Virus record (IMG/VR): IMGVR_UViG_3300029585_000050
Source of the DNA: a virus
Strand: one strand, 5' to 3'
DNA: 64,000 nt
The notes beneath the pieces were generated by a model. The model saw only the letters and a program-made list of their open reading frames with translations, was not told where the DNA came from and did not search any database. A program made the translations under genes and the position numbers. Below are positions 18,568 to 18,716 of this stretch, one piece after another. Every line of letters begins with the position of its first letter. Position 1 is the first letter of the stretch.

Positions 18568-18716
18568 TAGCGGCCATACTATATTGCATCCTTCTATGAA
18601 TGGCTAATCTTTAGGTCGGGGGTTCGAATCCCTCCTACCCGCCCATATTTTACGTTATGCGGGTAGTAGCTCAGTCTGGTAGAGCAAAAGAAATATTGCT
18701 GTAGTAATTCCCGCTA
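18568..18716 (+). ncRNA. YrlA-like Y RNA, circularly permuted tRNA mimic (element 2)
   Basis: TAGCGG/CCGCTA closing stem, GGCCATA, GCATCCTTCTA, then T-arm, loop-closed 8-bp acceptor and D-arm in permuted order. Confidence 0.8.

What the first reader, a model, noticed from the sequence alone, without database searches (positions are those of the whole stretch)
18568..18716. Circularly permuted tRNA mimic (YrlA-type topology)
Seen: tRNA parts occur in the order anticodon-stem 3' strand TCTTT (18608-12), variable loop AGGTC, T-arm GGGGG-TTCGAAT-CCCTC (18618-34), acceptor 3' strand CTACCCGC followed by CCA (18635-45), a linker, acceptor 5' strand GCGGGTAG (18659-66), D-arm GCTC-AGTCTGGTA-GAGC, and anticodon-stem 5' strand AAAGA (18687-91). 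The anticodon loop is replaced by the shared Y-like stem. Known: bacterial YrlA RNAs have this T-acceptor-D order with the Ro site in the anticodon position. Inference: it may be a decoy or scaffold for host anticodon nucleases, tRNA-modifying enzymes or RNA repair. Cleavage after the loop CCA would expose a tRNA-like 3' end.
Basis: partly seen in the sequence, partly recalled or inferred. Interest (0 to 1): 0.85.

Follow-up and report, generated by a model that had tools for sequence, protein, structure and literature searches.

The report
Phage tRNA-mimic Y-like RNA, non-Ro60 partner
This stretch encodes a real folded small RNA that carries a rearranged tRNA look-alike, as bacterial Y RNAs (YrlA) do, but its base stem is of a new kind and its likely partner is the neighbouring TerD-domain protein rather than a recognisable Ro60, a pairing that recurs in many phages and bacteria.

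Summary
Window 18568-18716 (+) holds, in order, a T arm, an acceptor stem closed by a loop, and a D arm. A 5-bp anticodon-like stem and two outer helices (P1, P2) enclose them.

Rfam YrlA matches at 44.3 bits, below its cut-off of 69. A covariance model built here scores the element at 106 bits. Across 34 distinct relatives, 96% of predicted pairs form, and 30 of 34 pairs show compensatory changes. It is therefore one folded RNA, not two tRNA remnants.

It is not a canonical YrlA. The Ro-binding GNCGAA motif is absent. A new conserved "handle" (GGCYAU ... UCCUUCUA ... AAUUUCC) takes its place. The adjacent 697-aa gene has no TROVE match, carries a clear TerD domain (Z 14), and resembles the Ro60 ring only moderately (Z 10.4-12.6).

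Handle-bearing RNAs cluster immediately beside this gene family, on its strand, in phages and bacteria. Five such bacterial genomes lack any TROVE gene.

The most likely reading is a Y-RNA-like particle whose tRNA-shaped module engages tRNA-recognising factors. The function is inferred and expression is untested. Eight of 34 units, including this one, encode NCCA after the acceptor strand.

Earlier notes of this scan report the same system on other DNA (26 findings, at least 19 genomes).

The parts
18568..18716 (+). Whole tRNA-mimic Y-like RNA unit, from P1 5' strand to P1 3' strand
   Evidence: R1 model hit 18567-18717, 106.1 bits, all 138 model positions. Rfam YrlA 44.3 bits.
18568..18573 (+). 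P1 5' strand TAGCGG. It pairs with 18711-18716 CCGCTA, and the last two G-C pairs are nearly invariant in the family.
   Evidence: Helix 1: 96% of cells paired, compensatory changes in 2-3 of 4 pairs.
18574..18576 (+). 5' side of the conserved internal loop (CCA, part of the GGCYAU motif). It lies opposite ATTC at 18707-18710.
   Evidence: Columns conserved in A3. The motif shows a strand bias of 241 to 10.
18577..18588 (+). P2 5' strand (TACTATA, a TT bulge, GCA). It pairs with 18697-18706 (TGC + TGTAGTA).
   Evidence: Helix 2: 9 of 10 pairs show changes on both sides.
18589..18596 (+). Invariant single-stranded motif UCCUUCUA, the candidate protein contact
   Evidence: Invariant columns in A3. 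GCATCCTTCTA occurs exactly 4 times in the window.
18608..18612 (+). Anticodon-stem-like helix, 3'-side strand TCTTT. It pairs with AAAGA 18687-18691.
   Evidence: Helix 3: 5 of 5 pairs show compensatory changes.
18613..18634 (+). Variable loop AGGTC and the T arm (GGGGG / TTCGAAT / CCCTC)
   Evidence: Helix 4: 100% paired. 18613-18635 is identical over 23 nt to the window's tRNA-Met at 14452-14474.
18635..18666 (+). Closed acceptor-like stem: CTACCCGC, CCA (18643-45), a 13-nt loop, GCGGGTAG
   Evidence: Helix 5: 6 of 6 pairs covary, 97-98% paired. The NCCA register was checked.
18667..18686 (+). U8-A9 and the D arm (GCTC / AGTCTGGTA / GAGC), then A26
   Evidence: Invariant in A3. It covaries in the more distant units of A5.
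18479..18546 (+). Handle-only Y-like unit with no tRNA module, in tandem upstream
   Evidence: R1 with filters off: 28.6 bits, E 1.3e-5.
18764..18838 (+). Handle-only Y-like unit, in tandem downstream, just before the gene
   Evidence: R1 with filters off: 23.2 bits, E 2.5e-4.
23056..23181 (+). Fourth handle-bearing unit, about 2.1 kb past the gene
   Evidence: R1: 32.3 bits. Motif found.
18861..20954 (+). 697-aa protein with a helical-repeat N-terminal part and a TerD domain. It is the proposed RNA partner.
   Evidence: No Pfam match. NCBIfam NF041916 at 354 bits, below its cut-off of 600. AF2 pLDDT 84.8. TerD Z 14; Ro60 chains Z 10.4-12.6.
20956..20981 (+). Terminator-like hairpin directly after the gene

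Best explanation
Window 18568-18716 encodes a structured small RNA built in two modules. The first is a 'handle': helix P1, a conserved internal loop (5' CYA opposite 3' AWUYU), helix P2, and an invariant single-stranded UCCUUCUA. Three other RNAs in the window and hundreds in relatives share this handle. The second is a cargo module, a circularly permuted tRNA look-alike with an anticodon-like stem, variable loop, T arm, loop-closed acceptor stem and D arm, and with all tRNA elbow contacts present. The handle is most likely the binding platform for the adjacent 697-aa TerD-domain protein, which may be a very distant Ro60-like ring. The tRNA-shaped module most likely presents a tRNA elbow and acceptor end to tRNA-recognising factors such as modification enzymes, RNase P, the CCA-adding enzyme or RNA decay and repair enzymes. 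In this it would act as YrlA does in Ro60/Y-RNA particles. Shown here: the fold, by covariation, and the genetic linkage to the protein family. Inferred: physical binding, expression as a separate RNA, and function.
For: The fold is supported by 20 hand-aligned units, with 96.3% of cells paired against 40-48% when partners are slid, 26 of 34 pairs with double changes, and 0 of 500 shuffles reaching the observed values. Among 34 distinct units, 14 of them not used to build the model, 96.1% pair and 30 of 34 pairs covary. The linkage is supported by the handle motif occurring 241 times on the gene's strand against 10 on the other, across 141 loci of the protein family. Eighty-nine of 137 hits lie within 400 nt upstream of the gene, 15 lie within about 200 nt after its end, and none lies inside it. 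Forty-eight of 71 distinct full-flank loci have the motif. Full-length tRNA-like units (63-134 bits) occur in about 40 loci, always on the gene's strand. They also occur in isolated phages: Rhodococcus phage Weasels2 (59.5 bits) and Xanthomonas phage XacN1 (handle unit). No canonical partner is in sight. Five bacterial genomes with the system have no Pfam TROVE match, and the positive controls worked. No TROVE was found among the window's long ORFs. For the protein, TerD gives Z 14, and Ro60 chains give Z 10.4-12.6 over 301-320 residues, with the next helical hit at Z 6.4. Precedent comes from the YrlA literature (PMC4201824; 10.1101/312249; PMC12135203).
Against: There are no expression data. 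No RNA run holds the sequence, and no sigma-70-like promoter or terminator separates the units from the gene. The units could therefore be parts of its 5' leader. Kinship with Ro60 is weak. There is no sequence signal even with a profile. The N-terminal domain alone gives Z 7.5 to phage Ro60, tied with generic HEAT repeats. AlphaFold DB neighbours carry TerD, RING or ZorC-EH names and never TROVE. Binding is inferred from gene neighbourhood only. RtcB lies near the locus in at most one of five genomes, so a repair link is not established.
Confidence: 0.7

Rival explanations
1. The handle units, including this one, are cis-acting operator sites in the 5' leader (or 3' trailer) of the TerD-gene mRNA. 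The protein would bind them to autoregulate its own synthesis, so they would not be free small RNAs.
For: The units sit in tandem directly upstream on the same strand. No promoter-like or terminator-like site separates them from the start codon, and the only terminator follows the gene. Most motif hits lie within 400 nt upstream.
Against: Units also lie downstream of the gene (L011, L013, L072, Weasels2) or kilobases away (window 23056-23181). A full tRNA mimic is an elaborate cargo for a mere operator. Canonical Y RNAs are likewise encoded beside Ro60 yet act in trans (PMC4201824). The two readings are not exclusive, since a co-transcript could be processed.
Confidence: 0.15
2. The RNA is opened in the acceptor loop. 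RNase P would cut before the acceptor 5' strand and the trailer would be trimmed back to the encoded CCA. The result would be a two-piece tRNA-like molecule with a free CCA end. This could be charged, or could soak up enzymes or toxins that act on tRNA 3' ends.
For: NCCA stands exactly at positions 73-76 in 8 of 34 distinct units, plus one CCA without N (P about 2e-5). M. smegmatis YrlA is cut by RNase P and receives CCA (PMC4201824).
Against: Most units, including all those in named bacterial genomes, have closed caps, so this cannot be the family's general mode. CCA could be a relic of tRNA ancestry. No end-mapping data exist. Without an anticodon, many synthetases would not charge it.
Confidence: 0.2
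3. It is simply a divergent canonical YrlA serving a true Ro60 orthologue, and the neighbouring protein is Ro60 with TerD inserted in place of, or within, the vWA domain.
For: Rfam YrlA is the only family that matches (44.3 bits). The whole-protein model aligns to four Ro60 structures at Z 10.4-12.6 over 301-320 residues.
Against: The score is below the gathering score, both here and in 20 relatives. The GNCGAA motif is absent. There is no TROVE signal by Pfam, by PDB sequence search or by profile. The Ro60 match of the N-terminal domain alone is tied with generic repeats.
Confidence: 0.25
4. It is a remnant of two tandem tRNA genes (the 3' half of one and the 5' half of the next), or a true permuted tRNA gene that matures into a decoding tRNA.
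For: BLAST of the unit finds only tRNA junctions in phage records. The T arm is identical to the window's tRNA-Met.
Against: The two acceptor strands pair with each other and covary. The enclosing stems covary. No anticodon loop exists. Real tRNA junctions match only the middle of the model, at 25-46 bits. ARAGORN makes no call.
Confidence: 0.01

Closest known systems
YrlA-type bacterial and phage Y RNAs with Ro60/Rsr (Rfam RF02553; Chen et al. 2014, PMC4201824; Wang et al. 2018, 10.1101/312249)
   Same: The module order is the same: T arm, loop-closed acceptor stem, D arm, with the 5' and 3' ends paired in a protein-binding stem where the anticodon loop would be. The D arm (UAGCUCAGUUGGUAGAGC) and T loop are nearly the same. 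The RNA is encoded next to, and on the strand of, a large ring-like protein gene, and is accompanied by smaller units without the tRNA module, like YrlB. Some members can be opened at the acceptor loop (M. smegmatis).
   Different: It scores below Rfam's cut-off (44.3 against 69), as do 20 relatives. The GNCGAAN0-1G Ro motif is absent. A distinct conserved handle takes its place (GGCYAU, UCCUUCUA, AAUUUCC). The partner gene has no TROVE signature and carries a TerD domain. NCCA is genomically encoded in about a quarter of the units.
Thermus phage phiLo Ro60 with Yrl1/Yrl2 (PMC12135203; PDB 9L5Y)
   Same: A phage-encoded ring protein with Y-like RNAs encoded just upstream. It is the best structural match of the HEAT part of the window protein (Z 12.6, 301 residues).
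   Different: phiLo Ro60 is a recognisable Ro60 with a vWA domain, and its Yrls carry the CGAA motif. The paper text contains no mention of a tRNA-like domain (0 occurrences).
TerD / tellurite-resistance family proteins (PDB 3IBZ, 2QNG, 2KXT)
   Same: Residues of about 467-640 of the neighbouring protein adopt the TerD fold (Z 12.1-14.0). Public annotations call homologues 'TerD family protein'.
   Different: Classical TerD proteins are stand-alone proteins of about 190 aa in ter operons with no known RNA partner. Here TerD is one domain of a 697-aa protein linked to structured RNAs.
Circularly permuted tRNA genes of Cyanidioschyzon merolae (from my own knowledge)
   Same: The 3' half of the tRNA precedes the 5' half in the gene.
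   Different: Those genes mature into normal tRNAs with an anticodon loop. This RNA has no anticodon loop, and its ends are locked in a conserved handle.

Membership tests
YrlA (Rfam RF02553 / Chen et al. 2014) | Order T arm, loop-closed acceptor-like stem, D arm, with the RNA ends paired below an anticodon-like stem | tested here: met
   Sequence, Rfam alignment, covariation of all helices.
YrlA (Rfam RF02553 / Chen et al. 2014) | Score at or above Rfam's gathering threshold (69 bits) | tested here: not met
   44.3 bits. None of the units in 20 related loci reaches it either.
YrlA (Rfam RF02553 / Chen et al. 2014) | GNCGAAN0-1G motif near the 5' end (proposed Ro60 contact) | tested here: not met
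   Absent from 18568-18612. The conserved 5' motifs are GGCYAU and UCCUUCUA instead.
YrlA (Rfam RF02553 / Chen et al. 2014) | Encoded within about 4 kb of, and on the same strand as, a TROVE-domain Ro60 orthologue | tested here: not met
   The neighbour has no Pfam TROVE match even at E 10. No TROVE among the window's ORFs of at least 330 aa. None in five genomes that carry the system.
YrlA (Rfam RF02553 / Chen et al. 2014) | tRNA-type modifications (pseudouridine 55, dihydrouridine) and binding by Ro60 in vivo | not testable with these tools
   Needs wet-lab assays.
Ro60 / TROVE proteins (for the neighbouring gene) | Sequence membership in TROVE (PF05731) | tested here: not met
   No hit. A profile of 32 homologues finds no Ro60 among PDB sequences.
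Ro60 / TROVE proteins (for the neighbouring gene) | HEAT-repeat toroid closed by a vWA domain | tested here: inconclusive
   The whole model against Ro60 chains gives Z 10.4-12.6 over 301-320 residues, with the next helical hit at Z 6.4. The N-terminal domain alone gives Z 7.5, tied with generic repeats. A TerD domain sits where vWA would be.
TerD family | TerD beta-sandwich fold | tested here: met
   Foldseek E 3e-5 to 6e-4. VIA Z 12.1-14.0 over about 150 residues.
Canonical tRNA | Continuous cloverleaf with a 7-nt anticodon loop | tested here: not met
   Not called by ARAGORN or Rfam tRNA. The anticodon position is occupied by the handle.

The most novel reading that the evidence does not exclude
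This is one member of a widespread ribonucleoprotein class in bacteria and large phages that the papers I could read do not describe. In it, a TerD-domain ring-like protein, not Ro60, binds RNAs that share one handle but carry exchangeable cargo. In the phage versions the cargo would be a tRNA mimic with an encoded NCCA. RNase P would open it into a two-piece, CCA-ended pseudo-tRNA that diverts or recruits enzymes acting on tRNA ends during infection.
Probability: 0.15. Interest if true: 0.85.

Novelty: new variant of a known kind. Interest (0 to 1): 0.62.

Why it matters
The purpose of the tRNA-like domain in Y RNAs is still unknown (10.1101/312249). A second lineage that keeps exactly this domain, while changing both the protein-binding stem and the protein, argues that the tRNA shape itself is the selected function. 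This lineage offers new systems in which to find what binds it. They include culturable phages (Rhodococcus phage Weasels2, Xanthomonas phage XacN1, Lactobacillus phage LpeD) and bacterial isolates (Arenicella, Aliikangiella, Zooshikella, Pseudoalteromonas). It would also give a role to a large family of proteins annotated only as 'TerD family' or hypothetical. Finally, it would add a class of unannotated structured RNAs to phage tRNA regions.

Tried and rejected
- **DNA similarity.** A BLASTN search of the 700-bp region against 50,697 phage records found nothing. A search with the 151-nt unit found only ordinary tRNA junctions.
- **Sigma-54 or phage promoter reading of GGCCAT...GCATCC.** I rejected it. 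The spacing varies from 12 to 14 nt among copies, and the bases between and beyond the motifs covary as RNA helices.
- **MFE pairing of UUCU 18592-95 with AAGA 18688-91.** I replaced it with TCTTT 18608-12 / AAAGA 18687-91, which covaries in 5 of 5 pairs.
- **Sequence link to Ro60.** None was found, with either a single sequence or a profile.
- **AlphaFold DB clusters.** None carries a TROVE name.
- **Whole-genome search.** No genome is held for this window.
- **Expression.** Only DNA metagenome runs from hydrothermal vents and seawater hold parts of the sequence, so I did not lay reads.
- **RtcB linkage.** RtcB is present in all five bacterial genomes checked, but lies within about 9 kb in only one, assuming C3 is the locus contig.
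- **Literature.** Burroughs & Aravind 2016 (RNA repair systems; ROT/TROVE) could not be read. I therefore cannot exclude that they mention a TerD-fused ROT protein. A 2026 preprint on three new families of tRNA mimics concerns unrelated RNAs.

Full report
**1. Observation.**

From 5' to 3' it contains:
- TCTTT (18608-12) and AGGTC (18613-17);
- a T arm, GGGGG/TTCGAAT/CCCTC (18618-34);
- CTACCCGC (18635-42), CCA (18643-45) and a 13-nt loop;
- GCGGGTAG (18659-66) and TA;
- a D arm, GCTC/AGTCTGGTA/GAGC (18669-85);
- A, then AAAGA (18687-91).

Two more helices enclose these. P2 is TACTATA..GCA (18577-88) paired with TGC+TGTAGTA (18697-18706). P1 is TAGCGG (18568-73) paired with CCGCTA (18711-16). 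All nucleotides that make the tRNA elbow and core contacts are present: U8, A14, G15:C48, G18G19, G53, T54, T55, C56, A58, C61.

ARAGORN and the Rfam tRNA model call five ordinary tRNAs in the window but not this element. With relaxed thresholds, the only meaningful Rfam match is YrlA (RF02553) at 18593-18708. It scores 44.3 bits, E 2.8e-8, against a gathering score of 69. The tRNA-like core aligns well and the Ro-binding stem does not. The MFE fold recovers P1, P2, the T arm, the acceptor hairpin and the D arm (-47.6 kcal/mol, z -2.7).

**2. Surroundings.**

The window is part of a large phage-like contig from marine or vent metagenomes. No whole genome is held for it.

The motif GCATCCTTCTA occurs exactly four times, at 18496, 18586, 18782 and 23074. 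Each copy is preceded by GGC(C/T)AT.

The next gene, 18861-20954, encodes 697 aa and has no Pfam family even at E 10. It matches NCBIfam NF041916 (MXAN_6230/SCO0854 RING family) below that family's cut-off. It also matches PHROG 33734, of unknown function. It has hundreds of metagenomic homologues, a few of them named 'TerD family protein'.

An AlphaFold2 model has pLDDT 84.8. Residues of about 467-640 form a clear TerD domain (Z 12.1-14.0). The rest aligns to four Ro60 structures: Thermus phage phiLo at Z 12.6 over 301 residues, and human, Xenopus and Deinococcus at Z 10.4-10.9. These stand well above the next helical hit, at Z 6.4.

This kinship is only moderately supported, for three reasons:
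- There is no sequence signal, even with a profile.
- The N-terminal domain folded alone gives Z 7.5 to phiLo Ro60. That match has the longest coverage (232 residues) but is tied with generic HEAT repeats.
- AlphaFold DB neighbours never carry a TROVE name.

**3. Relatives.**

I collected 141 loci that encode homologues of the protein. They come from viral contigs, metagenomes and bacterial genomes.

A simple pattern for 'T loop ... D arm' found permuted modules only on the gene's strand (34 loci against 0). The handle pattern GGYYAW-N5-16-YCCTTCY occurred 241 times on the gene's strand against 10 on the other. The few pattern hits that lacked the handle were true tandem-tRNA junctions.

In 71 distinct loci with both flanks, 48 have the strict motif next to the gene. 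Eighty-nine of 137 hits lie within 400 nt upstream, 15 lie just after the stop codon, and none lies inside the 2-kb gene.

**4. Fold.**

Twenty units were aligned as A3. RNAalifold found P1, P2, the T stem, the acceptor stem and the D stem. I added the 5-bp anticodon-like stem by register.

On that structure, 96.3% of cells pair, against 40-48% when partners are slid by 1-3 columns. Twenty-six of 34 pairs have changes on both sides, and 0 of 500 shuffles reach the observed values.

I built a covariance model, R1, from the alignment. It scores the window unit at 106.1 bits over all 138 positions. It finds full-length tRNA-like units (63-134 bits) in about 40 loci, all on the gene's strand. It also finds many shorter 'handle-only' units at 23-52 bits.

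With filters off it recovers all four window units: 18479-18546, 18567-18717, 18764-18838 and 23056-23181.

The alignment A5 holds 34 distinct full-length units, 14 of them not used for building. It keeps 96.1% pairing, 30 of 34 pairs covary, and the D stem now covaries too. A5 is fitted to the model, so it leans towards the structure; A3 is not. True tRNA junctions match only the middle of the model (roughly positions 32-117) at 25-46 bits.

The element is therefore a single folded RNA.

**5. What it is not.**

It is not a member of YrlA as defined:
- It scores below Rfam's cut-off, both here and in 20 relatives.
- It lacks the GNCGAAN0-1G motif that Chen et al. use as the Ro60 site (PMC4201824).
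- Its neighbour is not a TROVE protein by sequence.

Five bacterial genomes that carry the system have no TROVE gene at all, although the same search finds TROVE in the Deinococcus and Bacteroides controls. The window's long ORFs hold no TROVE either. The Y-like RNAs here therefore cannot be serving a canonical Ro60 encoded elsewhere in those genomes.

**6. Most likely mechanism.**

Two things are shown: a conserved two-helix handle with invariant loop nucleotides, and its tight genetic linkage to one protein family.

The rest is inferred. The protein probably binds the handle, as Ro60 binds the conserved bulged stem of Y RNAs. The tRNA-like cargo probably presents a tRNA elbow and acceptor end to tRNA-recognising factors. 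For YrlA these factors include TruB, DusA, RNase P and the CCA-adding enzyme (PMC4201824), and the true effector is still unknown (10.1101/312249).

The phage context fits a role in tRNA or RNA maintenance during infection but does not prove one. Many of the viral loci examined with ARAGORN carry tRNA genes near the gene. The window has five tRNA genes, a tRNA-methyltransferase-like gene and an RNA ligase gene.

A decoy for anticodon nucleases is unlikely, because there is no anticodon loop.

**7. A sub-variant.**

In 8 of 34 distinct units, NCCA stands exactly at tRNA positions 73-76 after a 7-nt acceptor strand. One further unit has CCA without N (P about 2e-5).

The window unit belongs to the CCA class. 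Its C73 pairs with a G at position -1, as in tRNA-His, and L004:95-239 shows the same feature.

M. smegmatis YrlA is cut by RNase P and then receives CCA (PMC4201824). Opening of the loop to give a two-piece pseudo-tRNA with a free CCA end is therefore plausible here, at about 20%, but it is untested.

**8. Novelty.**

The permuted tRNA-like topology is known for YrlA, including in phages (PMC4201824; 10.1101/312249; PMC12135203).

Three things appear new relative to the papers I could read:
- the distinct handle;
- the TerD-domain, non-TROVE partner;
- the encoded NCCA subclass.

A review of jumbo phages lists ROT/TROVE proteins with tRNA-like partners and stand-alone 'TerD' genes as separate items (PMC7824862). 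I could not read Burroughs & Aravind 2016.

Earlier notes of this scan describe the same kind of system on other DNA (26 findings, at least 19 genomes) and on this window. I treated them as leads and re-derived the evidence independently.

Noticed in passing
window 14452-14474 and 18613-18635: The variable loop and T arm of the tRNA mimic (23 nt, AGGTCGGGGGTTCGAATCCCTCC) are identical to those of the window's tRNA-Met(CAU) gene at 14407-14484. This suggests recent copying or gene conversion between a phage tRNA and the Y-like RNA.
   Followed up: partly
window 18659/18642; L004:95-239: In two CCA-bearing units the acceptor stem has 8 pairs, because a G at position -1 pairs with C73. This is the hallmark of tRNA-His acceptor ends.
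   Followed up: no
L144:4574-4703 (Rhodococcus phage Weasels2, record about 85637-85766); L145:2309-2378 (Xanthomonas phage XacN1): Published, isolated phages carry unannotated units of this RNA family beside their homologue of the protein: a tRNA-like unit at 59.5 bits just after gp266, and a handle unit just before ORF396.
   Followed up: partly
L002:2120-2260, L063:1712-1848, L004:95-239, L029:2177-2311, L074:12-136 and 142-275: Several loci carry two tRNA-like units. In the second units of L002 and L063 the D arm differs from the family consensus, as if they mimicked different tRNA species.
   Followed up: no
L130, L131, L136 at about 1780-1844, minus strand: In three gammaproteobacterial genome loci, the only handle unit found lies upstream of the gene but on the opposite strand (39-46 bits). 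These are the only exceptions to the same-strand rule.
   Followed up: no
L074:77-218: Rfam's tRNA model makes a spurious 35-bit 'tRNA' call that runs from the D arm of one Y-like unit to the T arm of the next. This shows how annotators could miscall these arrays.
   Followed up: no
window 3344-4384: An RNA ligase gene (PF09414, E 9e-10) lies about 14 kb upstream of the RNA array, in the same accessory region as the tRNA genes.
   Followed up: no
window 18861-20954, residues 7-467: An AlphaFold DB cluster representative (A0A5C5XM72, 498 aa, 32% identity) that matches the N-terminal part is auto-named 'Zorya protein ZorC EH domain-containing protein'. No ZorC structure appeared among the PDB matches.
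   Followed up: no
window 17780-18454: The gene just upstream of the RNA array matches the TorF/Gcw_chp putative porin family (TIGR02001, 47.4 bits, at its cut-off). This is unusual for a phage accessory region.
   Followed up: no
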